From Narcine bancroftii (taxonomy: Eukaryota), in assembly GCF_036971445.1 (NCBI RefSeq), contig NC_091478.1, positions 19,220,001 through 19,283,875 of the forward strand: a DNA stretch of 63,875 nucleotides. The letters are read 5' to 3'. The notes under the pieces were generated by a model. It was not told the DNA's origin. It did no database searches and worked only from the letters and a program-made list of their open reading frames with translations. The translations under genes and the position numbers were made by a program. Positions 1 to 57,438 of this stretch are shown here, piece by piece; the stretch's first letter is position 1, and each line of letters begins with the position of its first letter.

Positions 1-785
1 AATGTAAGGCAAAATAATCTACTTTCTGCTGCCTCCCTCCCTTTTTAAATAGCAGAGGGGCCTTTGCAATTTTCCAGTTCTCTGGAGCCATGATTCTTGG
101 AAGATCCTTACTAATTCCTCAACAATCTCTCTAGCTACTTCTTTCGAACCACTGGGTGCATTCCATCTGGTCTGGGAGACTTAACTACTCTTAGACCTTT
201 CAGCTTCACAAACACCTACACTCTGGTGCTCATGACTGCCCTCCCCTGACCCCCCCTTAAAAGTCCACTATACAGCTATCTTCAACAGCGAAGACTAATG
301 CAAAATACTCATTCAGTTCCTCTGCCATTACAATTTCTCCATTGTCATTTCCTATCAGTCCTATATCTACTCTTGCATCTTTTTTACTCTTAATATAGTT
401 AAAAAAGCATTTAGTATACTTTTTGATATTATTTGCTCGCTTCATTTCCAAATTAATCTTTTTCTTCCTAATGACTTTCTTAGATGCCTTCTATATACTT
501 TGTAAAAGTTTCCCAGTCCCCTATCTTCCCATTAATTTTTGCTTCCTTGTATGGCCTTTCTTTTGCTTTTCCTTTGGCTTTGTATTTTCACTTTCCCATT
601 CAAATATTTATTCTGTTTTGAAATATGCCTGTCCTGGCACAGGAAGTCCAGCCATTACTCTCTGCCATCCTCACTGCAAGTGTGCCTTTCAAATTAGCTT
701 TTGTCAGTTCCTCTCTCATACTTCTGTAGTCCCCTTTATTCCACTGGTATATAGACACCTCTGATTTTAGTTTATCCCTCTCAGA

Positions 786-1173
786 TAACCATAACCATAT
801 AACCATTTACGGAGCGGAAACAGGCCATGTTGGCCTTTCGAGTCCGCACCGGTTCACTGATTTTGTGCGCCCTCTTCAGGCATTGATCCCGGTAGATCTT
901 CATTCAATAACGATGGGCGAATTCAATGCAGATGGAATCAGTCGTGGAAGCTTAAAATGTTCTCTCTTGGACACAGGCAAATTCTAAGCTTTCCATTCTT
1001 TTTGTCCACAACGACGAGTGAACTCACCGACTCCATTTGATCATCTATCTTCTGAATCACGTCCAGGCTTTCCATCCTGTCCAATTCTGCCTTTGGTTGC
1101 TTTTGAAGTGCAAATGGAACTTTTCTGCATGGATGTATTATCGGTGGCACACGTTTATCCACTCTGATCGTGT
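786..1173 (-). mobile_element. Composite insertion: Gypsy RT fragment (~944-1173) fused to a ~155-bp element with a CR1-type GGTTATAT tail (786-943)
   Basis: HTIRVDKRVPPIIHPCRKVPFALQKQ..AELDRMESLDVIQKID..SSLVVVDKKNGKLRICL followed by REHFKLP is the N-terminus of a Gypsy RT. The host CR1 is collinear on both sides of the block. Confidence 0.75.
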
Positions 1174-1851
1174 GGTAGGGCAAATTCTATCATTTTGTAA
1201 TCACTGCCTTCTTTTCCTTCAGCTCCCTTATCAACTCTGGTTCGTTACACGATACCCACTCCTAAATTGCCATGTAGGCTCAAACACAAGGTGTTCGAAG
1301 ACGCCACCCTGAAGACATTCAATAAATTCTTTCTCTTGGGATTTAGGACCAAGCTGGTTTTCCCAGTCCACCTGCACATTGAGATTCCCCCATGACTAAT
1401 GTAACATTGCCCTTTTTGCACGCCTTCTCTATTTCCCTCTGTAGTTTGCACACCACATCCTGGCAACTGTTGGGAGGCCTGTTCATTACTCCCATCAGGG
1501 TATTTTTACCCTTACTGTTTCTTAATCCTACCCAAGGGATTTTATATCTTCCAATTCAAAGTCTCCAAAGGCTGAATTCCATTTTTAACCAACACAATCA
1601 CCCCAACCCCTCTGTCTACCTTCCTGTCCTTCTGATACACTGTGTATCCAAGGATATTTAGTTCCTGCTGTGGTCACCTTCCAGCCACACTCTGTGATGG
1701 CCACAATGTCATACTGGCCAACTTCCAGCTGCTCTACAAGATCATCAACCTTATTACTTATACTGTGGGCATTTAACTACAAAACCTACAGTCTTGTATT
1801 CACCACCTTTTTCAATTTGTTTCCAAAATAACCCAGTAAATTCTTCATCTT

Positions 1852-2125: not shown

Positions 2126-5059
2126 ATCTTACACTTGTATTTTTGTCCCATTGATTTCGTATCCTTCCCCACAACACAATGTGTCTGCCCTATTCACTGC
2201 CCTCTCATTTTGGTTCCCATCCCCCTGCCAAACTAGTTTAAACCCTCCCCAAGAATTCCAGAAAACCATGTCACCAGGGTATTAGTCCCTCTCCTATTCA
2301 GGTGCAAGCCGTCATTTTGGTACAGGTCATACTTTCCCCAGAAGAGATCCCAATGATCCAGGAATCTGAATCCCTGCCTCTGCATGAGCCCTTCAGCCAT
2401 AATTTCCTATTCCTGCCTTCAATGGTGCACGGCACTGGTAGCAATCCAGAGATGACCACACTTGAGATCCTATTTTTTTTTAGCTTCTCTTTATTTCCTC
2501 TTCAAGACCTCATCCTTTTTCCTCTCCATGTCATTGGTACCAACATGAACCATGACTTTTGACTGCTCACCCTCTGTTTGGGAATGTGGTGGACTTGATT
2601 TGTCATACTCCTGACCCTGGTATCTGGGAGACAATATACCATCTGGAAGTGTCAATCTTATTCACAGAAACTCCTAACTATCCCCCTATTGAAAACCTTA
2701 TCACTATTGTTCTCCTTCTCCCCTTCCCTTCTGAGCCAAAGGGCCAGACTCTGTGCCAGAGACCTGATCACAATAACTTGTCACAGGTAAATCATTTCTC
2801 CCCCCCGACCCACAAAAGTATCCAGAACAGTATACTTATTGTTGAGTGGTCCGTCCACAGGGGTGCCCTGCACTGATTGTCTCTACCCCTTCCCTCTCCT
2901 AACAGTTACCTGTCTCTTGCTTTTTGGGCGTAATTGACTCCTTATCGCTTCTGCCTATCTCCCTCCCAAATGATCCAGAGTTCATCCAGCTCCAGGTTCA
3001 GTTCCCTAACATGCTCTGAAAGAAGCTGTGTGCTATCCCAGATTTTCCACATGCTGCAATCGGAGCATACCACTTCCCTGGCTGCCATCGCCACTACCTA
3101 CCCTGAGTTATTAAGTAAAGATCTTAACGGACCTTATCTGTACCTGTAGCACATCCTCAGCCTCTGCTCGTCGAAGCCTCTCGAGACAAAGCCTCTAATT
3201 CTCCATTCCTACACTGGCCACTCCAACAATGAGCCTCCTTCACTTTCATTTATTCCTGCTAATGAATCGCAATTTGATTGGACTGCAAAGCGCCAAGTCC
3301 TGTGAACGCTCCTTTTTAATTTCTTCTGCCCGGCCTGTGCGTCTCTGTCTCTCCTTGTGAATCGATTGGTCTTTCTTGATCACCATTTCAATGCACCTCT
3401 GGTGTGTTTTGTACTTTATTTTAATCAGAATCTACCAAATACACAGCAGAATCCAATTAATTCTTGTTCATTCAGTAATATGGAGGATCTAGTGAAGAGA
3501 TGTGCATTTTTCCCCCAAATTCTGTGAATTTAACCGCAGAATTTTTTTTAAATTAGCTAGTTATTTTTTAGGACTCGCCAAAGATTTGCCACCACCATAT
3601 AGTGAGGTTCTCTGCAGTGATGATATGGAACTAACAAAGACTAAAGTCAAGAATAAAATCAGAACCAGGAGTGCTCCTGCATGCTGGTACAAATGGAGGG
3701 CCGGTTTTGATTAACCATCATCTTGTACTATAAAGTCAAAGGTGTGCAAAGACGATTTGACCACTTTAGGAGGGCACTTCAAAGAGAGACACATTATCTA
3801 CATTCACACATGTTCTTACTGTGCATAATGCTTATTGGCAGGGATTCTCCCACTCCTTCAACACGCCCTGCCCTGAGTCCCTTCACTTCCAGCACATACC
3901 AAATCCAAGAAAATCAATGGGCTTCCAGAACTTAAACCCATCCGCCTCCAGAAACCACCAACCTTCCAATCACATAGAACTATGATTTTAATTGCAACCA
4001 TACATTTGTAGCAACCATCGCAATTCCTAAACTAAACCCAATTAACTCCACAAATAAAAGTTTTAAATAAAGCAAGTTAAAAGTCCAATTGCTCTGATAT
4101 TAAATGGCACGTTAAAACTTTAATTGAAATGCATTCTCTGCACATTCCTTTGCAATTGGACAGCAGCCACACTGCACCTCAGAACCAGTGAGGATTTAAA
4201 CACTGTTACAAATATCCTGAGGATGTGGGCAGATCTGTACTTCACACCCTGGCAACTCCACCCCCATACATTCATTCCTTAACTGCTTGAGCCCCATTTC
4301 GAAGTGTACAAGGAATCCCAAAGAACCTTCCAGTTTTCCAGTTGATTCCTGACTCGGTGCCTAGCCCTCAGCAACACAGAACCCCTCAACCATTACATGC
4401 CCAGTCCTTCCCACAGCATCACTAAGTACATGGACTCTGTCAGCCCTGTATTCTGGTTGACTCAGTGGCACCAAAAAGAGCACTCATAAAAGGCACAGCA
4501 GAATAGAAAGAGGGATGATTTATTTTTTAGCAACTGTAGAACTTGTCACAGGAATGAATAACAAAATGATTATCAGATTGGCATACCAAAACAACAGAAA
4601 CTCTTTCAGTAGCGGAAGATTTAAAATCCTGAATACTTGCCAAGAAAATCGATGACAGAACCGTTCAATGAAAATAATTTCTCACAGTCATTCCTAAAGA
4701 AAAATAATAATTTGGCAAATCCCAACCAAATTTGTAATGTTAGCCTGAAAATAAAATACATGAACTCTCAGGGACAAATGAGCCCCCACGTCAGATCTTT
4801 GTTTTACCTCCAAAGCTTTCCAATGTTACACAAAAGAGAGCGCAAGACATTCAGAGCAAAGTAGAAAGTTGGGAATCAGATAGATACCTCACAAACTGGG
4901 GGTCAATGTTAGTAGAGGAATATGGGGGATACAGGTGTTTTCTTGATTAACATGATTCTGTTTAACCAGTTGTTTTTTAACCATTTTTTCCCCCACTCAC
5001 ATGCCACCTTAAGTAGTCCCTTACTAACCACAGAGCACCTATGGCATAGACCCTTTATG

Positions 5060-12398: not shown

Positions 12399-13628
12399 TC
12401 AGACTTTTTGAGCCCTGCTGCTGGTCCTGCAGAGGATCTTTTTGAAAGCCTTCCTGAAGTCGTGATTAAAGACAGTGTAGATGAGAGGGTTCAGAGAGCT
12501 GTTGCAATAGCCGAACCAGAAGAAGAATTTGAATAGAGTCTCGGGCACGGGGCAGCGCTCGGCGCAGATGGCGGTGAGGGAATAGGTGAAGAAGAAGGGG
12601 AACCAACACACGACGAAAACGCCGATCACCACCGCCAGCACGAAGGTGAACCTCTTCTCGCGGTTGTGCCGTCCTTTCCAGCGGCCCGACTTGGGGCTGC
12701 CCCCGTGCTCCGGTCTCTGCAGCCCGCTCACCGCCTTGCCTTGCACCGACTGCACCACCCCGGTGGCTTTGGCCCGGGGGCCCGGCTTGGCCTCGGCCGT
12801 ACAGTGATTGTCCTGGCGGTCGGAGGACGAGGAGTCCTCCTGTCCCAAGCCGTTGACCTGCGCCACGTTGGTCTGGGCCGCTTTGCTGGCGCCGTCCTGG
12901 TGTCCATTCGTGGGTGGCCCGGGGCGCACTCCGTTTGGCCGGGCGTTGGGTTTCTTGGCCGGCGGTTGCCTGGTTCTCAGCTTAGCGATCTGGTAGATCC
13001 TCACATAGACCAGGATCATGATAATACACGGGGCGAAAAAGGAGCCGATGCAAGAGGAGATGATGTACCATTTCTCGTCGTTGATCTTGCACTGAGGGTT
13101 CTCGCGGAGACCGGTCTCCTTACCAATGGAAATGAGCGGAGGGAAGGAGATGACGGCGGCGATCACCCACACCGTGACGATGATGCCCTTGATCCTTCTG
13201 GGAGTTCTCTTCAGGTTGTACTCGATGGCCTGGGTAATGGACCAGTACCTGTCCAAGCTGATGGCGCACAGGTGCACGATGGAGGACGTGCAGAACAAGA
13301 CATCCAAGGCCAGATAGATCTCACACCAAACCCGGCCGAAATACCAACAGCCCATCAGTTCTTTGGCCAGGGAGAAAGGCATGACCAAGGTGGCCACCAG
13401 GATGTCGGCGGACGCCAGCGAGACCAGGAAGAGGTTCTGGGGAGCCCTCAGTCCCCTGCTGGTGAACACGGCGATCACAACTAGCACGTTGCCGAAGAGA
13501 GTGGCCACGATGATGAAGGCCACCACTGAGGTCAGGGTGACGGCCGCCTGCACCGAGTACGCCTGCACATCTGGCGGCTCGGTGATGTTACAGCTCCAAT
13601 TGCACGGGCTGGCTGCCGGCACCGCCAT
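12399..13628 (-). CDS. ADRA2A: Alpha-2A adrenergic receptor (intronless class A GPCR), 409 aa from first in-frame ATG
   Basis: Unbroken ORF with 7 TM segments and alpha2 signatures: [25 protein letters not shown] (Asp3.32), [95 protein letters not shown], the ICL3 EDSSSS motif and KKILCR favour the 2A subtype. The ORF track start at 13652 is a GTG; the first in-frame ATG is 13628-13626. Confidence 0.93.
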
Positions 13629-13639
13629 CGGTCCCCTCG

Positions 13640-13648
13640 CTAACCCAT
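13640..13648 (-). other. Minimal upstream ORF ATG-GGT-TAG (Met-Gly-stop) in the ADRA2A 5' UTR
   Basis: Read directly; out of frame with the main ATG and ending 11 nt before it. Confidence 0.7.
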
Positions 13649-13933
13649 CCACTTCTGGCCACTTTAGCAGGAATCACACCGTCGGCGGTAGCTGCAGCCA
13701 ACTCAACTTGCAGAGCGAGTCTGTCCCCTCCATCACCCCGGTGCTCAGCGCCAGTGACCTGGAAAGGCGGTCCCCCGGACTCCGGAGAGAGAGAGGGGGG
13801 CGGGGGGTGGCAGGTGTAGAGTGGGAAGTTTGCACTCACGAGGACAAAGCGCAGTCCGAGTTCAGGCAGCGCCAGGCGGAGTCGAACCAGCGGCAAGCAA
13901 CACCTTGTCAACACGAGCTGAGGTCCGCCGTCC

Positions 13934-14565: not shown

Positions 14566-15742
14566 GTACTTAAAGGTACAGTGCCCGGAACAAGGCGAAC
14601 CCCTGAATATTTTAAGCCCACTTTTCCGTGCTGTTTTAGGACATCAGTTTGCACTGGACCCGTATTGCCTGTCCAGGGTTGCATGAGAATGAATGGACAA
14701 AGAGAGTGGGGGCGAGTTCTTGTGGTTTTGCTGCGCGTTTTATAACGCAATTTGAGATCTTGGGAGCGAATCGCAAACAGTTCCGAGAGCCCGTTGTTTC
14801 CAGCGACCCACCTTTGTCTTGGGGAGGTGTAGAAATATCATAGGAGAGGGGCTGGATAACTGACTGAAGATACACCACTAGGAAATGGTTGGCTGTTTTC
14901 TTTCTCTGTGTTGCAATGTTCAGATCGTGTGGCGCACTGGGGTGTACCAGGAGCAGTACTGCTTTACCACTGGCGGCCAGCTCTTCGGGTGGTTGGCGGC
15001 TCACGTTAAACAGCGGGCCGAGCAGCATCTGGGGCGGCAGAAGAATGCTCGGGGTTCCAGCCGAAACTTCAACCTTCCCTTGGCCTGACCCACGGAGTTC
15101 CTGCAGCCGTTTGTTTGGGTTTTATTTTGCTCCACATTCTGCAATCTCCTGTCATGCTAAACGCATTCGCTTTGTCCTTATTTTATATTTATTCTAAGAA
15201 TGGTTGGTCCATAATTGCATTGAAACGCTCCAAGTCAATGAGCAACGCTGCAACTGCAGCCTCCCACCTATGGTGGTGCTCCAGTGCCTCCACTGGTCAA
15301 ATAGTGCAACTACACCGCATCACTGACTTGAATCAATCAATGTCCAATTACTTCGATGAAGGAGTAGCGAGTTCTATGTCGGAAATTGCTGACCTCAGCA
15401 GTTGGGTGACACGGCAGGTGGTACAGACGAGGTTGTGGTTCTCTCTGGATTCCGGATGCAGACGAGAATATTCTAAATTGTGGAAAGCGCCGAGAGAGTG
15501 GATGAGGGGAGAGGTTTAGAGGTTCTTGTACAGAAATCAAAGGGCGTTGGTGAACAGCTATTACCCATTAAACTTCCAAAGAATAAACTTTATTTCAGGG
15601 GAACTAGGGTGTAAGGATGAGGTTGTGCCTGCATGAATGAACGCCTTCAGTTCTGGGCAGTTTAGGAATACGTGATCGTTTCAGTGGAAAAGAATAAAAC
15701 ACAAACTCGGAGAAAAGGAGCAATGATCATTTTTCTCAAGTT

Positions 15743-16185
15743 ACAATTGGGTCTAGAGCAGTGATTCTCAACCTTCCCTTCCCACTCACATTTCTTTGGC
15801 TTGGCTTCGCGGACGAAGATTTATGGAGGGGGTAAAAAGTCCACGTCAGCTGCAGGCTCGTTTGTGGCTGACAAGTAATCCCTATGCCATCGTGCTTAAG
15901 GTGGTATGTGAGTAGGAAGGGAAGGGAAGGTTGAGAATCACTGTTCTAAACCCAATTATTACCGAAATATCTTACTTGAGAAAAATTGTCATTGCCCCAT
16001 TTCCTTTGGAGCTATGAAACCGTGCACATAACAAGTCAATTAGGTACGATTAATACAGTGGTTTTCAACCTTTTTCTTTGGACCTACATACCACTTTAAG
16101 CAATCCCTTGCTAATCACAGAACACCTATGGCATAGGGAGTACTTGGTGGTATGTGAGGAGAAAGAAAAACGTTGAGAACCACTG
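15743..16185. mobile_element. Composite hAT (Charlie/MER5-like) MITE with foldback structure
   Basis: Repeated CAGTG(G/A)TT(C/T)TCAACC TIR motifs; internal spacer is the reverse complement of that in the 57075 copy; left unit flanked by inverted aattgggtctagag / ttctaaacccaatt. Confidence 0.75.
15792..15876 (-). mobile_element. RTE LINE 3'-terminal 85-bp fragment inserted in the MITE
   Basis: Identical by eye to the 3' end of the 41473-44624 element. Confidence 0.9.
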
Positions 16186-17187: not shown

Positions 17188-17317
17188 NNNNNNNNNNNNN
17201 NNNNNNNNNNNNNNNNNNNNNNNNNNNNNNNNNNNNNNNNNNNNNNNNNNNNNNNNNNNNNNNNNNNNNNNNNNNNNNNNNNNNNNNNNNNNNNNNNNNN
17301 NNNNNNNNNNNNNNNNN
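17188..17317. other. Assembly gap (130 N)
   Basis: Run of N. Confidence 1.
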
Positions 17318-19954: not shown

Positions 19955-22900
19955 AGTAATATTTTTAAAAATCTGGCAATTTCAAAAACCCCAATTTATA
20001 ATCCCAAGTCAATATTTCCATGGAGATTCTAGCCACTTTTCCATTCTACAGGAACTTGCTGACACACCTATTGAGCAGTTTGAAGAAGCCCTGGAAGAAT
20101 GGAATGGGTAATGTCTGAAATATATATTCTTCATCCTTTACCCTCATCCCTCTAATATCCTCATTTTGTCTAATAGCCTGTGCTAACGGTTCTATACCCA
20201 ATGCAAATAGGGCTGGTGACAATGGGCAGCCCTGACGAGTTGATCGAGTCAATTTAAAAGCTAAAGATGTCACCACCCTAGCAATGGGGTTCATATATAA
20301 GGCCTTAGCCCAACCAATAAAGAAAGGGCCAAATTAAAATTTTTCTAATACCATAAATAAAAAGTCCCATTCAACTCTATCAAAAGCTTTTTTGGCATCT
20401 AATGCAACTACCATAGGATGATTAGGTTGCCGCCAATATGCATTGATCAAAGTAAGCAATCGAAGTATATTATCTGAGCCATTTCTATTCTTAATAAAAC
20501 CTGGTTGATCAATATGAACTAAGTTAGGTAAATATTTAGCAGGTCTATTAGCTAATACTTTTGCCATAATTTTATATTCTACATTCAATAAAGAAACAGG
20601 CTATATGAAGATACCTGTTAAGGATCTCTGTCTTTTTTTGGGATAACAGTTATTAAAGCACTTGAACATGTTTCTGGTAAAATCTGATCTTCAGTAACTT
20701 GATGTAACACTTCCCCAAATATATTAGAAAATTCATCATAAAATAGTTTATAGAATTCCACAGGAAACCCATCATCTCCTGGGGACTTACCATTAGGCAT
20801 TTCCTGAATAGCTTCCTTGATTTCAAAATCCGGAAATGGAGATTCCAACTCCTGAATATCTTTCTCATCTAGTACCAGTAACGTAAATTTAGATAAGTAA
20901 GAATCATATACTTCCCCTCAGAAGTATATAATTTTTGATAAAATGAATAAAACTGGTAATTAATTTCCTGAGGCTTATAGGTAATTATTGAATTCTTCTT
21001 AACAGCATTAATAGTCCAAGATGCCTGTTCCACTTTCAATTGCCAGGCAAGTACCTTACGAGTCCTTTCCCCCAACCAACTCATAATAATGTTGTTTAGA
21101 TCTATTAATTAAGCACTCAAACTGGTAAGTTTGTAAAGTATTATAGCGTAATTTTAACTTTGCTAATACAGCTTTTTTATCTTCTGTTATATCTTTCTGA
21201 AAATCTTTCTCTAGTTCAGTAATCTGATTTTCCAACTGTAAAAAATATAAAATTAATCTATTTTCAGACGATGTGTTGATATATTTGATAGAGCCTGAGA
21301 GATCGTTGAAACAATTACAGGAGTGTTTATCAAAATTTGGAGAATTGTCAGGATATAAAGTTAACTGGGATAAAAGTGAAATTTTGCCAGTTGGAGTAGA
21401 AGATTATTCTGAATTTTAAAATATTACAAAATTAAGATAGACGAATAAAATCAAATACTTAGGTGTGTTTGTGGACAATGACTATCAATCGTTATATCAA
21501 TTAAATTATGTACCTATATTGAGGTGGATTAAAGCAGACTTAACTAAATGGAAAGATATCCCATTAACTGTAATTGGATGTGTTAATTGTATTAAGATGA
21601 ATATCTTTCCTTGAATTCAATATTTATTTCAATCAATACCTTGTTTACTTTCAAATAGTTTTTTTCAGGATTTGAATAAAGCAGTACGAGAGTTTTTGTG
21701 GAAAGGTAAATTAGCTCAAGTAGCGTTGCACAAACTTACTTGGAAATATGCATTGGGTGCCTTACAACTGCCACATTTTCAAAATTATTATGAGGCAGCT
21801 CAGTTGAAGTTTATTAGTAGACTGATGGATTTGGATCAACCTCCAAGTTGGGCTATGGTGGAGATATCATGTCTACCTAGAACAGAGATGCATGGATTTA
21901 TATTCTGTTGGAATTTGATTTTATTACAGAAATATGATATGCCAATACTGAAACATTTATTAAAGATTTGGATTAAAAAAAATAAAATTTTAGGGTCGAA
22001 AGATAAATTATCAAATTAAACTCCATTATACAATAATCGGTTTATTCCTTTTTCAATGTTTAATAGTTATTTAAAGATTTGGAATTCTAAAGGTATAAAG
22101 ACAATACAGGACTGTTTTGTAGAGGACAATTTCTTTTATTCATCTGAGAGAACGATTTGAAATACCTTTAAATTATTTTGTATTATCAGCTTAGGGCTTT
22201 AGTAAAAGATAATTATGGTAGAGAGATGTATTTACCTACTTTGTCAAAATTTGAATCTTTTTAAAAAAAAATTAAATATTTTTAAATTAAAATTTTTATA
22301 TAATTTTTATATATAAAATATGTACAAACGTATCTCATTAAATTTACACAGTGGTCTTTTCTCCCCTTTCCCACCCTCCCACTTTTCCTCCCTCCCCTCT
22401 ACCCCCCCCTCCAAAAAAATGGAATCTTTGACTTCTACTATACCAAAGAAGGGTTATGTTTCAGTTATGTATAATTTATTACAGGACAATATGGATAAAA
22501 CAGATTGGGAAAAATCTAAACTTAAATGGGAGACTAATTTAATGTTTACTTTCCCTGAAGAGGATTGGGTGAACATGTGTCAGGACAATGTAATTAAATT
22601 GACTAATATAAGATATGGTATGGTCAATTATAATTTTTTTACATCAATTGTATTTGACCCTGGAAAAGTTAAAAAAATAAAAAAATATCGGATTCTTGCT
22701 TTAGATGTAGTTTATGTACTGGTACTTTTTTTTTAACATGCTGTTTGGACTTGTGTGAAAGTCCAACCATTTTGGCAAGAAATTAAAATTGTTTTGGAAA
22801 ACTTGTATAATTTTAAACTACCATTCGATCCAATTATTTTTTTGTTGGGAGATTTGCATTCATTAAAGAGCATGGGTTTGGATAAAGTTCAAATTGCTTT

Positions 22901-24385: not shown

Positions 24386-25155
24386 TTGCTTTTTACCTAT
24401 ATGCTGCCTTGTCATTGGGTATTTCCAGCAGTGTCGGCCTTCTTCCAGAGGACATTTGGACAAGGGACAGGGTTGGTGGACAAGACATCCTCACAAAAGT
24501 CTGTCAAACTTAATTGGAAAATATAACATGGACAGATATGCATTGGACAGATGGCCACATAGAAGGTACAATTTCATTATCTTCCTTATCTATTTTAAAG
24601 TGGGATGTATCATTTAAACCTTTATTATAGTGAAGATCTGAAGAACATGATAAAATGCGTAGGTATTAACCATAGGCACCAACACCAGAAATGAAATCCT
24701 CAGCAACTGGAGACAGTAGTCATGACGACGTACTCTCAAAAGTGCCTGATAATTTAAGGCCCAGCATTTCCAGCTGCTAACCAACTCTAGTGCTAACTCA
24801 AGTGCTAGCCGCTGGTATTGGCGGATTTACAGGTCAGAGATAAAGCTGGCCCATTGGTCAGTTAAAGGCACTGTGATTATGTTTAAACACCCAGTTGGAG
24901 AAGTGTGGCCTGGGGTGCTTGGGAAGCTTGGGTTGTGTGTTTAGCGGGTGTTTGGAATTAAATTCACTTACTAGAATAAAAGGTCCGTTTAGTTAATAAA
25001 TCATGTTTGCACCCCTGTGGTGGTGAAATCAGGTGGGAAGGGGAAGAAAGGAGCCAAGAGGTCATGAGGAAGGGGCAGAGGGCTGAGAAAAATGCACTCT
25101 GATTGGAAAGGAAGGGGTGTTGGGGGGGGGGGGGGGGTAGTGAGAGGAACTAAGG

Positions 25156-25328
25156 CAATGGTTCTCAACCTTTTGTTTCCACTCACATACCACTTGAAGT
25201 AATTCCTTACTAACCACAGAGCACCAATGGCATATTATAGCTAACTCATCTATGCTATAGGTGCTCTGTGGTTAGTAAAGGATTACTTAAGTGGTATGTG
25301 AGTGGAAACAAAAGGATGAGAACCACTG
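25156..25328. mobile_element. hAT-type MITE, single palindromic unit
   Basis: TIRs caatggttctcaacc / ggatgagaaccactg; 8-bp TSD aactaagg / aactaatg (7/8). Confidence 0.85.
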
Positions 25329-25344
25329 AACTAATGTAAAGAAA

Positions 25345-35662: not shown

Positions 35663-36066
35663 AATTCAGTACTTTGAGTAAAATTCAGTTCCATTTCTAC
35701 CCATGGAGGGTGGTCAATTAGATTATCGAAGTATAACAAAAGAAGCAAATTGCATATATTGCCCGCCCAGTAATAAAATCTAAAATTAGGAAACACCAAT
35801 TCACCATTCCTTTTAGCTTTTTGAAGATGAGCTTTATTTAAGTGGGAGTTTTTCTCTTGCCATATGTAGGAAGATATTATCGAATCCAATGTCAAAAAAG
35901 GATTTGGGAATTAAATTTGGTATAGATTGGAAAATATGCAAAAATTTAGATATAATGTTCATTTTAATAAATATGACTATTCATGGAAATAGATAAAGGC
36001 GACCATCTTGATAGCAGTAATTTGAACTGATTAAATAAAGTAGAATTTTTTTTCTTTAAAAAGATC

Positions 36067-36312
36067 AAAGCTTGCTGCAAGAACTCTTTAAATTCTGCTG
36101 ATACAAATTGTGGGCCATTGTCAGAAAATATTGAACTGCACGTTTCACAAACATTTCTATGACTGATTCCACCTGCATTGAATTTGCCCATCGTTACTGA
36201 ATGAAGATCTACCGGGACCAATGCCTGAAGAGGGCGCACAAAATCAGTGAACCGGTGCGGACTCGAAAAGCCAACGTGGCCTGTTTCCGCTCCGTAAATG
36301 GTTATATGGTTA
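36067..36312 (+). mobile_element. Composite insertion: antisense Gypsy integrase fragment plus the same ~155-bp CR1-tailed element as 786-943
   Basis: 36161-36312 matches the reverse complement of 791-943 with 6 transitions. The adjacent minus frame reads IFSDNGPQFVSAEFKEFL (integrase core). The host L1 is collinear across the block. Confidence 0.8.
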
Positions 36313-38525
36313 TAACACTTAGTAATTGTAATTCCGAGATCGGTAAATTGATCCTTCACAATCTTAAAAGGAAAATTCGAATATCTTGATGTAGAAGCAT
36401 TTAAAGGTAAAAGTTCACCTTATACCCAGAAAAGTGACTAATTTAAGAAAACAAAGCTGATCTGCTTGGTAAAGAAACATCTGGATTGGATACAAAAAGC
36501 AAAAGGTTATCTGCATATGAGGAAACTTTGGTTTCAATGCCGTTCTTATGGATCCCTATAAAATTTTTACTTTCTCAAGAGCAATTGCTAGAGGTTCTAA
36601 TACCAAGTCAAAAAGTAAAGGACAACCTTGACGAGTACCCCGATGAAGATTAAAATGTTTTGATTGTTGAAAATAGGACATAAATATAATAATTTAATAA
36701 AATAGAGTCCATCTCTGCATCCAAACTGGCAGGAGTGGAAGGTAAATATAAACCATTCAATAAATGGTTTATATTAAAATAAGAATAACAGTTTTTAATA
36801 AAACTGGTTTGATCTTCAGAAATTATTAATGGTAAAATATTCTCCAATCTTTGGGCCAATATTTTAGACAAAATCTTCATATCTATATTAAGTAAAGAAT
36901 AGGTTTCTAAGAAGCACATTCAAATGGATCCTTCCCTTTTTGTCAAAATAAGAGAAACAAAGCTTCATTAAAAGATGATATTTAAATGTGTCATTAACCA
37001 CAAAACTTAGTTGGGATACAAGCAATTCTTTGGGGTACCCATCAGGTCCTGGAGATTTACCATATTGTCAGATACTGAGTTCAATATCCTTACCATCCTT
37101 CAGAAAAAGAAAGACCATCAGTTCTCCAACTCCTTCTGTTCAAGGAGAAGGTTTTTCCTGATTGTCCCACCAAGCCTTCACTCTTTTACAGACCATGATG
37201 AAATCTCTCTCTCGCCTTGTTAACCTCAAGAAAACAACCCAGCCCAACCAACTGCACAACTGAAGTGTTCCCATCATGGTGACTCCCTATGAATGTTTTT
37301 AATAGATTCTGCTATATAATGTATGTTTGAAATAATCTATTTACTCCTCGCAAGACCAATTTTAATCATCCATTCAAAATGATAATGTCTTCTATTTAAA
37401 GCAGTGGTGCAGGTCTTAGGGTAGATGCTTCACAGCATCAGCCATCCAGTTTCACTAATGGCTGCCTATGTTGTCTGACCTGATGTTTTTATGTTTTCTC
37501 TGTGACCATATAGATTTCCTCTGGTTTATTCTCTTGCACCCCAAGAACATGCAACTAAGACCAAGAATAATGGTTGTTTATTCAGGAAAAACAGATGAGG
37601 GTCATGTGATTGAGTCACTTGATGGGGACACAAAGAAACAGAATTCAGTTTTGATCAGCAAGCCATCTGATAAACAGAGGTGGAATGACTCTGTGTGTAA
37701 ATGGACATTTCTGCTGATTCTCCTTGTCAGGGGAATTATTGAACTGCTGAGACCATTGTAACGGTCATTCTGATTGACCCATAAATGGGTAGCGGAAGCA
37801 GTCAAATTCCGGCATTGGATCATGACCATTGTGATAGTTATTTTGACTGACCCGTACCTGGGTTTTGGAAGCATCATGGAAGTCACATGTTTCATTTCCC
37901 CTGCGCAAGGAAAAGGGGAGTTGAGAAAATCATATGAAAGGACATTTCTCTGGAAGCAATTCAACAAGGATTCATGAGTTTTCAGCAGTCTGATTACTCA
38001 AAGCTCTTTCATGCAGTCAAAAAACCTGTGTAAGGGCAGAGTTTCTCCTCCCATACTTCGAGAGCCACCTCCATGAATGTGCCATGGCCGACTCCAAGAC
38101 GCTGCGCTCTGCCACCTAGCATGAATGTAATGTAGCTGCAAACGGCTGGCTAGGGGCAGGATGATGACGTCGTGAGCCTGAGACACAGGAGTGGGGCTTT
38201 TAAAACACTTCAGGGAACTGCAGTGGATGCTAAGCTTGCATACAGTCTGTGTGGAGTTTGCACATTTTCCCCATGTCTCTGGGGCCTTTTTTCTGCCTAT
38301 AGCTTCCTAACCTGCATCCCAAAGATCTCCTGGCAGGTTAATCAGCTACTCTAAGCTGCCCACTGGTTCAAGTAATTGTAAGGGAATGAAAGGGTATGTG
38401 AGAAAGATGATGTTTTTAACCTCAAACCAATATATTAAGAGTGATGGCGTATCTCTGCTGGGAACAGACATTGACCTGATGGGGAAATGGCCTTCTGTAA
38501 TGTAATAAGTTAGATCCTTTATTAT

Positions 38526-40844: not shown

Positions 40845-41380
40845 CATAGAAAGGTTGTTTCCTATGGTGGGAAAGCCTAGGACGGTGGTTCTCAACCTTT
40901 TTTACCCCAATCACATACCACCTTAAGTAATCCTTACTAACTACAGAGAGCCTATGTAATAGGTCTCAGACAAGAGGGTACAACTTCAGGATTGAAGTGT
41001 GACCACTAAGGAGAGAGATTCGGAGGAATTTATTTAGCCAGAGGGTGGTAAATCTGTGGAATTTGTTGCCACAGGTAGCTGTGGAGGCTGTCATTGAGTG
41101 TATTTAATGCAAGTTCTTGAACAGCCAGGGCATCACATTCACATACCACCTTAAGTAATTCCTTACTTACAAATTACCTACGCCATCCTCTGCCATAGGT
41201 ACTCTGTGGTTAGTAAAAGATTTATTAAGGTGGTACATGACTGGGAAAAAGAGGTTAAGCATCACCGTTATGGGTGAAAGCCCAGGTAGTGGGGCTGAAT
41301 GGGGGAATGGATCAGCTCAATGGCAGGGCAGACTTGATGGGCTAAATAGCCTATTTCTGCTTCTATTTCTTATGGTCTTA
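40845..41380 (+). mobile_element. CR1 3' fragment carrying two partial hAT MITE insertions (~40883-40962 and ~41135-41267)
   Basis: CR1 3' text (tttagccagagggtggtaaatctgtggaatttgttgcc..; tail cttatggtctta) broken by MITE halves bearing TIR-like ends. Confidence 0.65.
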
Positions 41381-41472: not shown

Positions 41473-44400
41473 CTTCTTTCTTTGGCTTGGCTTCGCGGAC
41501 GAAGATTTATGGAGGGGGTAAAAAGTCCACGTCAGCTGCAGGCTCGTTTGTGGCTGACAAGTCCGATGCGGGACAGGCAGACACGATTGCAGCGGTTGCA
41601 AGGGAAAATTGGTTGGTTGGGGTTGGGTGTTGGGTTTTTCCTCCTTTGCCTTTTGTCAGTGAGGTGGGCTCTGCGGTCTTCTTCAAAGGAGGTTGCTGCC
41701 CGCCAAACTGTGAGGCGCCAAGATGCACGGTTTGAGGCGTTATCAGCCCACTGGCGGTGGTCAATGTGGCAGGCACCAAGAGATTTCTTTAGGCAGTCCT
41801 TGTACCTTTTCTTTGGTGCACCTCTGTCACGGTGGCCAGTGGAGAGCTCGCCATATAACACGATCTTGGGAAGGCGATGGTCCTCCATTCTGGAGACGTG
41901 ACCCATCCAGCGCAGCTGGATCTTCAGCAGCGTGGACTCGATGCTGTCAGCCTCTGCCATCTCGAGTACTTCGACGTTAGGGGTGTAAGCGCTCCAATGG
42001 ATGTTGAGGATGGAGCGGAGACAACGCTGGTGGAAGCGTTCTAGGAGCCGTAGGTGGTGCCGGTAGAGGACCCATGATTCGGAGCCGAACAGGAGTGTGG
42101 GTATGACAACGGCTCTGTATACGCTTATCTTTGTGAGGTTTTTCAGTTGGTTGTTTTTCCAGACTCTTTTGTGTAGTCTTCCAAAGGCGCTATTTGCCTT
42201 GGCGAGTCTGTTGTCTATCTCATTGTCGATCCTTGCATCTGATGAAATGGTGCAGCCGAGATAGGTAAACTGGTTGACCGTTTTGAGTTTTGTGTGCCCG
42301 ATGGAGATGTGGGGGGGCTGGTAGTCATGGTGGGGAGCTGGCTGATGGAGGACCTCAGTTTTCTTCAGGCTGACTTCCAGGCCAAACATTTTGGCAGTTT
42401 CCGCAAAGCAGGACATCAAGCGCTGAAGAGCTGGCTCTGAATGGGCAACTAAAGCGGCATCATCTGCAAAGAGTAGTTCACGGACAAGTTTCTCTTGTGT
42501 CTTGGTGTGAGCTTGCAGGCGCCTCAGATTGAAGAGACTGCCATCCGTGCGGTACCGGATGTAAACAGCGTCTTCATTGTTGGGGTCTTTCATGGCTTGG
42601 TTCAGCATCATGCTGAAGAAGATTGAAAAGAGGGTTGGTGCGAGAACACAGCCTTGCTTCACGCCATTGTTAATGGAGAAGGGTTCAGAGAGCTCATTGC
42701 TGTATCTGACCCGACCTTGTTGGTTTTCGTGCAGTTGGATAATCATGTTGAGGAACTTTGGGGGACATCCGATGCGCTCTAGTATTTGCCAAAGCCCTTT
42801 CCTGCTCACGGTGTCGAAGGCTTTGGTGAGGTCAACAAAGGTGATGTAGAGTCCTTTGTTTTGTTCTCTGCACTTTTCTTGGAGCTGTCTGAGGGCAAAG
42901 ACCATGTCAGTGGTTCCTCTGTTTGCGCGAAAGCCGCACTGTGATTCTGGGAGAATATTCTCGGCGACACTAGGTATTATTCTATTTAGTAGAATCCTAG
43001 CGAAGATTTTGCTTGCAATGGAGAGCAATGTGATTCCCCTGTAGTTTGAGCAGTCTGATTTCTCGCCTTTGTTTTTGTACAGGGTGATGATGGTGGCATC
43101 ACGAAGATCCTGAGGCAGTTTACCTTGGTCCCAACAAAGCTTGAAAAACTTATGCAGTTTGGCATGCAGAGTTTTGCCGCCAGCCTTCCAGACTTCTGGG
43201 AGGATTCCATCCATACCTGCTGCTTTGCCACTTTTCAGTTGTTCGATTGCCTTATATGTCTCATCCAGGGTGGGAACCTCATCCAGCTCTAGCCTTAGGG
43301 GCTGTTGAGGGAGCTGGAGCAGGGCGGAATCTTGGACTGAGCGGTTGGCACTGAAAAGAGATTGGAAGTGTTCTGACCATCGGTTGAGGATGGAGATCTT
43401 GTCGCTGAGGAGGACTTTGCCGTCTGAGCTGCGCAGCGGGCTTTGGACTTGGGGTGAGGGGCCATACACAGCCTTTAGAGCCTCGTAGAAACCCCTGAAG
43501 TCGCCAATGTCCGCGCTGAGCTGTGTTCGTTTGGCGAGGCTAGTCCACCACTCATTTTGGATCTCCCGGAGTTTGCGCTGAAGATGGCTGCATGCGCGAC
43601 GGAAGGCTTGTTTCTTCTCTGGACAGGACGGCTTTGTAAGGTGAGCCTGGTGGGCAGCTCGCTTCTTTGCCAGCAGCTCCTGGATTTCCTGGCTGTTTTC
43701 GTCAAACCAGTCCTTGTTTTTCCTGGAGGAGAAGCCCAGTACCTCTTCAGTGGATTGCAGTATGGTAGTCTTCAACTGATCCCAGAGGGTTTCAGGGGAC
43801 GGGTCCGTGAGGCGGGTTGCAACGTCGAGCTTTGCTTTGAGGTTTGCCTGGAAGTTTCCTCTCGCTTCGCCTGACTGCAGGTTTCCAACATTGAACCTCT
43901 TTCTGGGGGCTTTATTGTTCCTGGGCTTTGGCTTGAAGTGAAGGTTGAGCTTGCAGCGAACCAGCCGGTGGTCAGTGTGGCATTCCGCGCTAGGCATGAC
44001 CCTGGTGTGGAGCACATCTTGTTTGTCACTTTCTCGCACCAGGATGTAGTCCAGGAGGTGCCAGTGTTTGGATCGGGGATGCATCCAGGTGGTCTTAAGG
44101 CTGTCCCTCTGCTGAAAAAGGGTGTTTGTAATGACAAGTCGCTGTTCTGCGCAGAGCTCCAACAGGAGGCGCCCATTGTCATTGCACTTGCCGACGCCAT
44201 GCTTGCCCAGGATTCCTGGCCAGGTTTCTGAGTCTTTGCCGACACGAGCGTTGAAGTCGCCCAGGATGACAACCTTGTCGGCTGTAGGGGTACGTTGGAT
44301 GAGGTTGCGCAGGTCGGTGTAGAACTTGTTCTTTTCTGCTGGTTCCGCCTGGAGGGTTGGAGCATAGACACTGATGAGGGTGATGTGACGCTTGTTTTGA

Positions 44401-44624
44401 AGTGGGAGTCGCATGGACATGATTCGGTCCGAGAGGCCTGTCGGAAGGTTTTCGAGTTTGGAGGCAATGAAGCTCTTGACCATGAAGCCTACACCAGATA
44501 GGCGTCGTTCATCCGAAGGCTTGCCAGACCAGTAGAGTGTGTAGCCCGCGCCGCGTTCTTGGAGGCTGCCTACATCTGCCAGGCGGACTTCACTGAGAGC
44601 GGCTATGTCGATGTCAAGTCTGAG
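41473..44624 (-). mobile_element. Young 5'-truncated RTE-clade LINE with 12-bp TSD GTTACTTGTGAT
   Basis: TSD at 41461-41472 and 44625-44636; short AAAG/AAG-type 3' tail; single APE-RT ORF; CpG-rich. Confidence 0.95.
41532..44624 (-). CDS. RTE ORF: AP endonuclease + reverse transcriptase + C-terminal zinc finger (N-terminally truncated, ~1030 open codons)
   Basis: The frame stays open upstream of the track Met (LRLDIDIAALSEVR..YTLYWSG). APE motifs GDFNARVG, LDYI, TDH; RT motifs YRGITLL, FVDLTKAFDTV, GVKQGCVLAP, FADD, YLG; C-terminal CNRC..H..C. Confidence 0.93.
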   Translation of the reverse strand, partial: LRLDIDIAALSEVRLADVGSLQERGAGYTLYWSGKPSDERRLSGVGFMVKSFIASKLENLPTGLSDRIMSMRLPLQNKRHITLISVYAPTLQAEPAEKNKFYTDLRNLIQRTPTADKVVILGDFNARVGKDSETWPGILGKHGVGKCNDNGRLLLELCAEQRLVITNTLFQQRDSLKTTWMHPRSKHWHLLDYILVRESDKQDVLHTRVMPSAECHTDHRLVRCKLNLHFKPKPRNNKAPRKRFNVGNLQSGEARGNFQANLKAKLDVATRLTDPSPETLWDQLKTTILQSTEEVLGFSSRKNKDWFDENSQEIQELLAKKRAAHQAHLTKPSCPEKKQAFRRACSHLQRKLREIQNEWWTSLAKRTQLSADIGDFRGFYEALKAVYGPSPQVQSPLRSSDGKVLLSDKISILNRWSEHFQSLFSANRSVQDSALLQLPQQPLRLELDEVPTLDETYKAIEQLKSGKAAGMDGILPEVWKAGGKTLHAKLHKFFKLCWDQGKLPQDLRDATIITLYKNKGEKSDCSNYRGITLLSIASKIFARILLNRIIPSVAENILPESQCGFRANRGTTDMVFALRQLQEKCREQNKGLYITFVDLTKAFDTVSRKGLWQILERIGCPPKFLNMIIQLHENQQGRVRYSNELSEPFSINNGVKQGCVLAPTLFSIFFSMMLNQAMKDPNNEDAVYIRYRTDGSLFNLRRLQAHTKTQEKLVRELLFADDAALVAHSEPALQRLMSCFAETAKMFGLEVSLKKTEVLHQPAPHHDYQPPHISIGHTKLKTVNQFTYLGCTISSDARIDNEIDNRLAKANSAFGRLHKRVWKNNQLKNLTKISVYRAVVIPTLLFGSESWVLYRHHLRLLERFHQRCLRSILNIHWSAYTPNVEVLEMAEADSIESTLLKIQLRWMGHVSRMEDHRLPKIVLYGELSTGHRDRGAPKKRYKDCLKKSLGACHIDHRQWADNASNRASWRLTVWRAATSFEEDRRAHLTDKRQRRKNPTPNPNQPIFPCNRCNRVCLSRIGLVSHKRACS

Positions 44625-44630
44625 GTTACT

Positions 44631-44872
44631 TGTGATAGTACAGACCTATCACCAGGGTATATAGTTACAGTATCTAGAGTATGTAATGACTGTGCTTGCA
44701 GTGATTGGCTGAGAGCTAAGCCACGCCTACTGTCTGGGCCTTAAAGGGTTGTGTCCCTAGCCAGGTCGGATCATTCCGGACTGGTCGGCCACCTGTGAAG
44801 AGCTCCTGTCTTTTGCTAATAAAAGCCTTGGTTTGGATCAACAAGTCTTTGGTTCTTTCGACAAGCTCTACA
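44631..44872 (+). mobile_element. Probable solo LTR (~242 bp) whose first bases were the RTE target site
   Basis: TGTGA...CTACA termini, ATTGG (44704-44708), TATA-like TTAAAG, AATAAA (44818-44823). The flanking 5-mers ttact/agact match only partly. Confidence 0.5.
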
Positions 44873-46056: not shown

Positions 46057-46666
46057 TCTTCTTTCTTCTTTGGCTTGGCTTCGCGGATGAAGATTTATGG
46101 AGGGGTAAATGTCCACGTCAGCTGCAGGCTCGTTTGTGGCTGACAAGTCCGATGCGGGACAGGCAGACACGGTTGCAGGGGAAAATTGGTTGGTTGGGTG
46201 TTGGGTTTTTCCTCCTTTGTCTTTTGTCAGTGAGGTGGGCTCTGCGGTCTTCTTCAAAGGAGGTTGCTGCCTGCCGAACTGTGAGGCACCAAGATGCACG
46301 GTTTGAGGCGATATCAGCCCACTGGCGGTGGTCAATGTGGCAGGCACCAAGAGATTTCTTTAGGCAGTCCTTGTACCTCTTCTTTGGCGCACCTCTGACA
46401 CGATGGCCAGTGGAGAGTTCGCCATATAACACGATCTTGGCGAGGCAATGATCCCCCATTCTGGAGACGTGAACTACCCAGCGCAGTTGGATCTTCAACA
46501 GCGTGGATTCGATGCTGTCGGCCTCTGCCATCTCGAGTACTTCGATGTTAGGGATGAAGTCGCTCCAATGAATGTTGAGGATGGAGCGGAGACAACGCTG
46601 GTGGAAGCGTTCTAGGAGCCGTAGGTGATGCCGGTAGAGGACCCATGATTCGGAGCCGAACAGGAG
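46057..46666 (-). mobile_element. RTE LINE 3' fragment (~610 bp), slightly diverged copy
   Basis: Collinear with 41473-~42095, with substitutions and small deletions. Confidence 0.92.
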
Positions 46667-49900: not shown

Positions 49901-50660
49901 TTGCATTGATGCTCGCAGACCAAGAGGCAAAAACAGATTCGATTCAGAACCAACAAGCTTACAATAATATTGAAGTGACTGGTTTAAATGGTTTTAATTG
50001 TGAGGAAAACCACAAGAATTAGAGCAAAGTCACCAAGGACAAATGAAAGTCATTACTTATTGGAGACTATCTGAATGCAAAGACCAACGTCTTCCTGTTA
50101 TACTAGCATTGTAGTGAGATACACTTCCTCCTCCAATATTATGGAAATATCCGTGAATAACTGCTCCATCATTTATGAGTTTGCCAACAGTGATAAATAT
50201 TAGTCAGTTTAATGGTGATATTCTCATATAACAAAAAGACAGGCAAAGTCCAATCATTTATTTGTGTGCGAGGCTTTGAATAAACCATCGGGTTGTGCTA
50301 AAACGCATTAGATTAAGAATGGTGCTCCCTATGTTTCTGCAGTTTTATAGCCCTGTTACGAACTAGACCAGCAGCAACAGAAATTCACTGAGACAATGAT
50401 GCCCTCAGAACAATAATTTTTATTAAAATAACACTTCTGATTTAACCCCACTATGAGTGTGCGTGAGATCTGTCCTAAAAACATGCCAGTTTACAGGGAC
50501 AATTGTAAAAAGAATCAATTTTTTAACGTTCAGTGAGTTTTATGTTGAAACTCCAATTCTTTATGTTGCTCAAAAGTAATTATGGAGTAGATGCGAGGCC
50601 TCAGACTTCTCAAAACTCATGAAATTCTTAAAGAGTGGTTTTCAGAGAATTGTTTCTTCA

Positions 50661-50958
50661 ATAGACAATAGGAGCTGGAGTAGGCCATTTGGCCCGTCGG
50701 GCCAGTACCGCCATTTTAGATCATGGCTGATCATTACCATCAGTACCCCTTTCCAGCCTTATCCCCATAACCCTTAACTCCATTACCCACAAGAGTCTTA
50801 TCTAACTCTCTTTTGAACATAGTCAGCGAATCTGCCTCTACCACCCTCTGTGGCAGAGCATTCCACAGATTCACACTTCTCTGGGTAAAAAAATGCTTTC
50901 TCATCTCCGTCCTAAAGGGCCTACCCTGTATTCTTAAACTATGCCCTCTAGTCCTCTT
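50661..50958 (-). mobile_element. CR1 3'-terminal fragment
   Basis: RTRGHSLRIQGRPFRTEMRKHFFTQRSVNLWNALPQRVVEADSLTMFKRELDK (CR1 ORF2 C-terminus) plus ctattgtctatt tail. Confidence 0.9.
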
Positions 50959-57074: not shown

Positions 57075-57438
57075 CAATGGTTCTCAACCTTTTTCTTTCC
57101 ACTCACGTACCACTTTAAGTATTCCCTGTGCCATGGGTGCTCCGTGATTAGTAAGGGATGGCTTAAGGTGGAAAGAAAAAGTTTTAAAACCACTGTTTCA
57201 ATCGTACCTCATTGACTCGTTATGTGCACGGTTTCATAACTCCAAAGGAAATGGGCCAATGACAAATTTCCTCAAGCAAAATATTTCAGTAACAATTGGG
57301 TCTAGAGCAGTGATTCTCAACCTTCCCTTCCCACTCACATCCCACCTTAAGCCATCCCTTACTCATCACAGAGCACTGAAGGCATAGGGATGACTTAAAG
57401 TGGTATATGAGTGGAAAGAAAAAGGTTGAGAACCACTG
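57075..57438. mobile_element. Composite hAT MITE (two units plus ~115-bp spacer) with 8-bp TSD
   Basis: TIRs caatggttctcaacc / ggttgagaaccactg; TSD tttcaggg / ttttaggg (7/8). Confidence 0.85.

What the first reader, a model, noticed from the sequence alone, without database searches (positions are those of the whole stretch)
786..1173. Chimeric short retroelement: Gypsy fragment + Rex1-like segment + CR1 tail (copy 1)
Seen: a ~155-bp unit occurs here and at 36161-36312, differing by 6 substitutions, all transitions. Its 3' end is a CR1-type tail ending in GGTTATAT repeats. Its middle translates as KIYRDQCLKRAHKI, resembling the Rex1-like motif seen elsewhere in this window (DRHLRRVRKII, IYLDCCLKEICKII). 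Here it is fused directly to a sense Gypsy RT fragment, and the host CR1 is collinear on both sides, so the block looks like one insertion without a TSD. Inference: a non-autonomous CR1-mobilised element that captures LTR-retrotransposon sequence at its 5' end, by template switching or as a multi-part mosaic SINE. No pol III A/B box is visible. I do not recognise it as a described family.
Basis: partly seen in the sequence, partly recalled or inferred. Interest (0 to 1): 0.75.

Follow-up and report, generated by a model that had tools for sequence, protein, structure and literature searches.

The report
Short mosaic retroposon carrying Gypsy heads
A roughly 155-base jumping element stitched from pieces of other retrotransposons occurs twice in this stretch, each time inserted together with a different scrap of a Gypsy retrotransposon at its front end, likely because it has no promoter of its own and is copied from transcripts that start in Gypsy elements.

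Summary
Confirmed and extended. The unit (786-944, minus strand; second copy 36161-36313) is a true mosaic: CR1-type tail (786-858), Rex1-like ORF2 piece (854-898, 5-nt overlap with the tail) and a 45-nt segment of unknown origin. Public runs show that the CR1 and Rex parents continue differently at these joints, so it is not an ordinary 3' UTR. It has hundreds of unrelated 3' flanks, a 5' boundary near 941-946, and is seen in two organisms but not in a third. Both window copies were inserted together with a Gypsy piece: sense RT (copy 1) and antisense integrase (copy 2). These are the window's only Gypsy hits. Copy 1's Gypsy joint, deletion and rare bases recur in a longer contig of another sample, so copy 1 is likely a 5'-truncated copy of an existing chimeric source, not a one-off template switch. 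Best reading: a SINE-like, CR1-mobilised composite without a pol III head, whose copies inside decayed Gypsy elements are re-copied with 5' transduction, as proposed for SINEU and SVA. Template jumping remains a real rival. A Gypsy preference rests on two copies; no genome was available. New variant of a known kind; interest 0.5.

The parts
786..1174 (-). Copy 1: whole inserted block (Gypsy RT piece + unit), no target site duplication, 0-4 nt of target lost
   Evidence: Joints 783->1175/1177 in contigs of other host-CR1 copies (tables 5, 5c)
786..858 (-). CR1-type 3' tail, about 70 nt, predicted stem-loop and ATGGTTAT repeats
   Evidence: Loose ends at 858 with a shared continuation in 86 (X5), 15 (X1), 10 (X9) contigs; unrelated flanks at 791/792; fold z -1.8; related tail at 59652-59710
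854..898 (-). Rex1-like ORF2 piece (IYRDQCLKRAHKI); 854-858 is shared with the tail (5-nt overlap)
   Evidence: Loose ends at 898 (34 contigs X10, 10 X1) and 854 (4 X1); in-window Rex-like matches start at 854 and end at 898; family name rests on recall plus a weak ALKBH8_N/PF09004 hit, E 6e-4, below cut-off, in another in-window copy
899..944 (-). Segment X, 45 nt, origin unresolved; forms the 5' end of the unit
   Evidence: Shared by both copies; absent from run X10; no Rfam or Pfam hit
945..1174 (-). Decayed Gypsy reverse-transcriptase piece, sense to the unit, with a frame-shifting deletion of about 22 nt near 963-968
   Evidence: same joint, deletion and rare bases in X1 records 2 and 6
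660..785 (-). Older host CR1 ORF2, downstream side of the insertion (extends beyond these limits)
   Evidence: Contigs 660-783 with 14-18 differences and joints across the block
1175..1330 (-). Older host CR1 ORF2, upstream side of the insertion (extends beyond these limits)
   Evidence: Joints and depth; translation
36161..36313 (+). Copy 2 of the unit
36067..36160 (-). Gypsy integrase-core piece (SDNGPQF..EFKEF), antisense to copy 2 and directly 5' of it
   Evidence: tblastn E 0.001, 8 of 30 Gypsy proteins at E<0.1, none on the reversed window; Pfam rve E 0.023, below cut-off; left limit read by eye from the host frame
35725..36529 (-). Older L1-like host of copy 2, in order on both sides of the 36067-36313 block
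   Evidence: tblastx to the in-window L1 at 20901-22100, E 7e-11, pieces on both sides in order; frame reading

Best explanation
This is a short mosaic repeat (CR1-type tail, Rex1-like piece, 45-nt unknown segment) that is likely copied by CR1 proteins and likely relies on outside promoters, so that copies which landed inside decayed Gypsy elements would be transcribed from upstream and re-inserted with a 5'-truncated scrap of that Gypsy attached. Shown: the three-part build and its joints; many independent 3' insertion sites; both window copies inserted as single blocks with a Gypsy piece and no target site duplication; a longer relative of copy 1's chimera in another sample. Inferred: (1) CR1 ORF2 recognises the tail stem-loop and primes on AT-rich targets by short pairing with the tail repeat; (2) the family has a fixed 5' end near 943; (3) full-length copies fell into Gypsy elements, one sense in RT and one antisense in integrase; (4) read-through transcripts ending at the CR1 tail were reverse transcribed past the short unit and truncated at random, giving 230 nt and about 95 nt of Gypsy; (5) the mosaic itself grew earlier by the same cycle or by template switches.
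For. (a) Parents leave the unit at 858 (CR1: 86, 15, 10 contigs in X5, X1, X9; agreement 0.6-0.85) and at 898/854 (Rex: 34 in X10, 10 and 4 in X1). (b) 282+94 contigs of X5 have unrelated 3' flanks at 791/792 (agreement 0.36-0.37). (c) Summed depth in X5 is 1.05 M on the tail and 179 k on X (901-925) but 120 at base 944; the fall in three runs (ratios 0.20, 0.26, 0.30) fits a 31-mer taper to an end at about 941-946 (rough model), where both window copies also part. (d) X1 record 2 (96 nt, depth 124.9, 914-1009, 4 differences, no gap) bridges the Gypsy-unit joint and the deletion; record 6 (272 nt, depth 126, 980-1174, 3 differences) overlaps it by 30 nt and runs 77 nt past 1174 in sequence that is not the host CR1, so it is a different and longer locus or transcript. 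(e) At 1038, 1040 and 1095 the X1 depth that keeps the window's base is exactly 126.0, while 97-99.7% of X5 depth has another base at 1029, 1038, 1040, 1085 and 1095: shared derived states of a decayed source. X1 is guessed to be RNA; 30 Gypsy proteins hit only two places in 63,875 bases at E<0.1, both touching a unit's 5' end; two other CR1-type tails (59652-59710, 50622-50720) have none; reversed-window control empty. No pol III head. Precedent: SINEU 5' extensions and a master copy inside a Mariner element, SVA driven by MAST2 (PMC4494074, sections 17 and 20).
Against: Only two copies could be read with their 5' flanks. The RT chimera is rare in the DNA run of X1's species (at most 61 depth units keep the window's base at 1095 in X5, none at 1038 in X9), so finding Gypsy on 2 of 2 copies needs many separate Gypsy-embedded sources. 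No source locus with Gypsy on both sides of the unit was seen. X1 is not shown to be RNA. The 77 extra bases of record 6 were not printed. Depth is no copy number, and 709 loose-end rows were not shown. The integrase call is weak (22-30 residues, below the Pfam cut-off). Copy 2's empty site was judged from protein frames only; tblastx spacing gives 219 nt against a 247-nt block. Overlaps at the joints (5 nt at 854-858; TTC(C/T)A at 945-949) fit DNA insertion and RNA template switching equally.
Confidence: 0.5

Rival explanations
1. Template jumping: CR1 reverse transcriptase reaches the fixed 5' end of the short RNA and jumps onto another RNA, with Gypsy RNA of either strand (for example cut piRNA precursors) as favoured acceptor; copy 1's chimera arose that way once and was later copied again.
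For: Both heads join within about 5 nt of the same point with a TTC(C/T)A overlap; heads are of both strands and from different Gypsy regions; the unit itself is made of 45-nt internal pieces of other elements; template switching was proposed for SINE heads (PMC5729268; PMC4494074 section 17).
Against: Copy 1's joint is not a one-off: the same joint, deletion and rare bases occur in a longer form in X1, so an extra step (a transcribed chimeric master) is needed anyway. Nothing seen here explains a preference for Gypsy RNA.
Confidence: 0.27
2. An ordinary short non-autonomous element with its own 5' end (segment X could be the extreme 5' end of a LINE with an internal promoter, as in bipartite non-autonomous LINEs); most copies have no extension and the two Gypsy heads are rare secondary events that happen to share this window.
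For: Fixed 5' boundary; X is missing from X10, which also lacks the parent tail (depth 12-14 on 801-850); the RT chimera is low in X5 and X9; bipartite elements are known (PMC5786205).
Against: 2 of 2 copies carry Gypsy and no other Gypsy hit exists in the window; with 2.5-3.7% Gypsy/DIRS1 as in five batoid genomes (bioRxiv 10.64898/2026.10.27.761883; that the window is from such a fish is my inference) two of two by chance is about 0.001; that paper on bipartite elements found LINE 5' parts only from RTE and Vingi.
Confidence: 0.17
3. The unit is the normal 3' end of one longer autonomous family, or the blocks arose by DNA-level nesting and deletion in place.
For: Depth falls from 3' to 5' as in truncated LINEs; 709 loose-end rows were hidden, so a common upstream sequence is not strictly excluded.
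Against: The CR1 parent continues differently at 858 and the Rex parent at 854/898; no shared continuation near 943 is among the 24 loose ends listed; both window copies part at the same point; both hosts are collinear with almost nothing lost.
Confidence: 0.06

Closest known systems
SINEU of crocodilians (PMC4494074; passages and sections 17, 20 read)
   Same: Short non-autonomous retroposon with no recognisable internal promoter; groups of copies share 5' extensions, one traced to a master copy inside another transposon; template jump versus 5' transduction discussed as the cause.
   Different: SINEU heads come from U1/U2 snRNA; here no small-RNA head was found, all identified parts are pieces of retrotransposons, the tail is CR1-type, and the extensions are Gypsy coding sequence of both strands.
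SVA and LAVA composites of apes (PMC5174737 passages; SVA-MAST2 as cited in PMC4494074)
   Same: Composite of fragments of other repeats, mobilised in trans by a LINE, can acquire upstream sequence from an outside promoter.
   Different: Kilobases long, with a VNTR, and L1-driven; here about 155 nt, no VNTR, no poly(A), no target site duplication, CR1-type tail; no splice sites seen at the joints (read by eye).
HE1/HER1, TguSINE1, PittSINE: tRNA-headed SINEs with CR1-group tails (table in PMC3747384; PMC5729268 passages)
   Same: Short element borrowing the 3' tail of a CR1-type LINE; head exchange by template switching proposed for PittSINE.
   Different: No tRNA head, no A/B boxes; body is a Rex1-like coding piece.
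Bipartite non-autonomous LINEs (RIME, Bov-A, Vingi derivatives; PMC5786205, part 1 of 5 read)
   Same: Short LINE-derived unit with a LINE tail and no small-RNA head.
   Different: Those join the 5' and 3' ends of one LINE; here the middle is from a different LINE's ORF2 and the origin of the 5' segment is unknown.

Membership tests
Classical SINE (tRNA/5S/7SL head) | Head from a pol III RNA with A and B boxes | tested here: not met
   No tRNA, no Rfam match better than E 1.1, no A box or strict B box; one loose B-box pattern in copy 1 only
Classical SINE (tRNA/5S/7SL head) | 3' tail shared with a partner LINE | tested here: met
   Other contigs share 792-858 and continue with one common upstream sequence; that this parent is an autonomous CR1 is inferred, its ORF was not seen
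Classical SINE (tRNA/5S/7SL head) | Short, non-coding, dispersed in many copies with a fixed structure | tested here: met
   155 nt, two copies at 95%, hundreds of unrelated 3' flanks (tail shared with the parent), high summed depth on X in three runs; no copy number could be given
Classical SINE (tRNA/5S/7SL head) | Target site duplication | tested here: not met
   Copy 1: 0-4 nt lost, none duplicated; copy 2: none seen, tail overlaps the host by TTATA(A) (by eye)
3' UTR of one autonomous CR1 family | Sequence upstream of the tail is common to the family and leads into ORF2 | tested here: not met
   Parent diverges at 858; middle belongs to a Rex-like family; copies part at 943-949
Bipartite non-autonomous LINE | 5' part equals the 5' end of the LINE that gave the tail | not testable with these tools
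   No genome, parent's 5' end not available
Bipartite non-autonomous LINE | All parts from one LINE | tested here: not met
   Rex-like middle and CR1-type tail have separate parents
SINEU | Head from U1 or U2 snRNA | tested here: not met
   No snRNA match in Rfam
SINEU/SVA-type 5' transduction | Several copies share one 5' extension at different truncation lengths | tested here: met
   Window copy (ends 1174) and X1 records 2+6 (77 nt longer) share joint, deletion and rare bases; two instances only
SINEU/SVA-type 5' transduction | Source locus with the unit inside the element that supplies the extension | not testable with these tools
   No genome; 3' flank of the X1 chimera not shown
SVA/LAVA | VNTR, poly(A) tail, L1 hallmarks | tested here: not met
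   None in the sequence

The most novel reading that the evidence does not exclude
A promoterless, snowballing retroposon built only of other transposons' coding scraps that routinely takes on Gypsy sequence of either strand at a fixed 5' end, and so scatters sense and antisense Gypsy fragments through the genome; a LINE-driven family that depends on, or samples the RNA of, LTR elements, possibly feeding piRNA defence.
Probability: 0.2. Interest if true: 0.75.

Novelty: new variant of a known kind. Interest (0 to 1): 0.5.

Why it matters
How short retroposons without an internal promoter get transcribed is stated as an open question for SINEU (PMC4494074, section 20). A young, abundant family with a fixed 5' end and readable, co-inserted 5' extensions would let one count 5' transduction against template jumping across many copies. 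It would also show one LINE family assembling and spreading mosaics of three or four retrotransposon families, a route for the origin of SINE bodies. If the Gypsy heads prove rare, it is one more uncatalogued non-autonomous repeat.

Tried and rejected
Exact 24-nt pattern over the tail/Rex joint: 0 matches in metagenome, genome and viral contigs. Peptide scan of metagenomes: 1 locus of 240 candidates, L001, with no DNA likeness, a chance hit. Profile-free search with the 151-aa antisense frame of copy 2: 1 hit, P0031, a repeat protein with a PP2 domain, judged chance; word search with it: 0 of 244 candidates. Rex-like peptide search: 0 of 5 candidates. PDB: no RT hit for the 70-aa piece; Pfam: none for it. 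Structured-RNA idea: whole-unit folds are not better than shuffles (z -1.26, -0.16; 5' half -0.54, -0.14), so the 7-nt inverted repeat 856-862/936-942 is not given weight; no ribozyme or snoRNA family. X as an antisense endonuclease scrap (reads ITMGEFNA, like the GDFN motif): only E 13 against the window's RTE, Pfam empty; kept as a lead. X as part of this Gypsy family: unlikely, X10 has the Gypsy but 0-0.3 depth on 901-950. No RNA holder is on record. Earlier findings: four look-ups, nothing. Paper searches listed no description of this family; Dfam, Repbase and subscription papers were not searchable, and no supplements were opened, so absence from print is not established.

Full report
Observation. 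The unit at 791-949 (minus strand) matches 36155-36313 (plus strand) at 151 of 159 bases; all 8 differences are transitions, 6 of them in the core. The tail repeats, the KIYRDQCLKRAHKI frame and the two Rex-like motifs elsewhere are as described. The piece at 945-1174 is Gypsy RT: 30 of 44 candidate proteins score E<=0.001, the best are 77-83% identical, several carry RT, RNase H and integrase domains and two are named Gypsy integrase-like. It aligns to residues 417-487 and 493-500 of P0001 in two frames, that is a deletion of about 22 nt near 963-968. No genome is held. That the window comes from a cartilaginous fish is my recall of the tail style, not a call result.

Anatomy from public runs. 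Twenty of 22 listed runs hold part of 786-1173, in 8 studies and 7 organisms; nine hold 0.26-0.50 of the words. Four runs were laid on 601-1350 at 85% likeness; all are contigs, so depth is only a guide, and long tables were cut. Contigs leave the window sequence at 858 with one shared continuation (86 in X5, 15 in X1, 10 in X9): the parent that gave the tail. They leave at 898 (34 in X10, 10 in X1) and at 854 (4 in X1): the Rex-like parent. The window's own Rex-like relics match from 854 and up to 898. The two parents overlap by five bases, 854-858. At 791/792, 282+94 contigs of X5 have unrelated flanks (agreement 0.36-0.37): many separate insertions of this tail. Segment X (899-944) is deep in X1, X5 and X9 (7.5 k, 179 k, 4 k on 901-925) and absent in X10 (0.3), which does hold the host CR1, the Rex piece and the Gypsy. 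So the unit is a lineage-restricted mosaic family and not the 3' UTR of one CR1.

The 5' end. Depth falls to 120, 127 and 394 at base 944 in X5, X9 and X1. The ratio of the bins 926-950 to 901-925 (0.20, 0.30, 0.26) fits a 31-mer taper to an end at about 941-946 (rough model). The two window copies part at the same place. No shared continuation near 943 is among the 24 loose ends listed (709 not shown). I read this as a fixed 5' end with varied sequence upstream.

Both copies carry Gypsy. Copy 2 is preceded by an antisense integrase-core piece (E 0.001; Pfam rve E 0.023, below cut-off). Thirty Gypsy proteins hit only two places in the window at E<0.1, the 5' ends of the two units (all 30 at copy 1, 8 at copy 2); the reversed window gives none. 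Two other CR1-type tails have no such hit. Random placement within 20 nt gives about 8e-7 (after the fact, and only one Gypsy clade was used as probe); with the 2.5-3.7% Gypsy/DIRS1 reported for five batoids it is about 0.001. Both blocks are single insertions: other copies of the host CR1 join 783 to 1175-1177 with 4-6 letters between, and the L1-like host of copy 2 aligns in order on both sides (E 7e-11; spacing 219 nt against a 247-nt block, so this site is less exactly fixed). Neither has a target site duplication.

Copy 1 is a daughter of an existing chimera. X1 record 2 covers 914-1009 without a gap at depth 124.9 with 4 differences; it bridges the joint and the deletion. Record 6 covers 980-1174 at depth 126 with 3 differences, overlaps record 2 by 30 bases, and has 77 further bases that do not fit the host CR1. 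It keeps the window's base at 1038, 1040 and 1095 (remainder exactly 126.0), where 97-99.7% of X5 depth differs; other listed Gypsy contigs differ at 8-22 places. So the joint predates this insertion, the source Gypsy was already decayed, and a longer form exists. X1 is only guessed to be RNA. In X5 at most 61 depth units keep the window's base at 1095, and none at 1038 in X9, so this chimera is a minor lineage there. This counts against reading the RT head as the family's normal head, and it leaves open why 2 of 2 copies carry Gypsy.

Mechanism. No tRNA, Rfam family or A/B box was found, and the whole unit folds no better than shuffles; only the tail is modestly structured (z -1.8). I favour (0.5) a CR1-mobilised composite that relies on outside promoters: full-length copies that fell into Gypsy elements were read through and re-inserted with truncated Gypsy heads. 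Template jumping from the RNA's 5' end onto Gypsy RNA (0.27) explains the shared joint position and both strands but needs an extra step for copy 1. A self-promoting unit with two rare secondary events (0.17) and a plain 3' UTR or in-place nesting (0.06) follow. Short overlaps at joints do not separate these: LINE 5' ends join target DNA by annealing too (PMC4245944, abstract).

Comparison. It works most like SINEU, whose copies have grouped 5' extensions, one traced to a master inside a Mariner element, and like SVA/LAVA; it is a member of neither, and fails the head test for classical SINEs such as HE1 (listed with its partner HER1 in PMC3747384). What I saw of each paper: passages of PMC5729268, PMC5499810, PMC5174737, PMC3747384, PMC13343379 and bioRxiv 10.64898/2026.10.27.761883; passages and sections 17 and 20 of PMC4494074; part 1 of 5 of PMC5786205; abstract and outline of PMC4245944; no supplements. 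Seven searches listed no description of this family, but Dfam and Repbase could not be searched.

Verdict. Real, well-delimited and odd; a new variant of a known kind (short non-autonomous composite with 5' extensions). Interest 0.5; 0.75 if Gypsy heads prove to be the rule (probability 0.2).

Noticed in passing
window 41535-44645 (-): Unbroken 1037-aa ORF with endonuclease and RT domains (Pfam), RTE-like by recall; its 3' end matches 15791-15876 at 86 of 86 bases and 46060-46666 at 91.7%, which suggests recent activity. The 86-nt copy sits inside a short palindromic repeat.
   Followed up: partly
window 12402-13673 (-): Single-exon 7-transmembrane receptor ORF (Pfam 7tm_1, E 4e-70); reads like an alpha-2 adrenergic receptor (recall).
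   Followed up: partly
window 4971-5049, 15712-16185, 25150-25330, 40876-41268, 57073-57445: Family of short palindromic, MITE-like repeats, some nested or interrupted by other elements.
   Followed up: no
window 899-944: Segment X holds an imperfect internal repeat (902-916 / 921-935, 80%), a 7-nt inverted repeat with the Rex/tail joint, and reads ITMGEFNA on the opposite strand, like an endonuclease GDFN motif; it also resembles Rex sequence upstream of 898 weakly. Origin unresolved.
   Followed up: partly
window 59652-59710 (+): A second, 85% similar CR1-type tail of about 55-60 nt with the same terminal repeat and no Rex, X or Gypsy part.
   Followed up: partly
window 885 (runs X5 and X9): A few contigs leave the unit at 885 with other sequence: possibly further truncated copies or another joint within the Rex piece.
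   Followed up: no
window 1177-1216: Many host-CR1 contigs rejoin only at about 1216, so this stretch of the host is more diverged or carries an indel (table 5).
   Followed up: no
window 17188-17317: Run of 130 N, an assembly gap.
   Followed up: no
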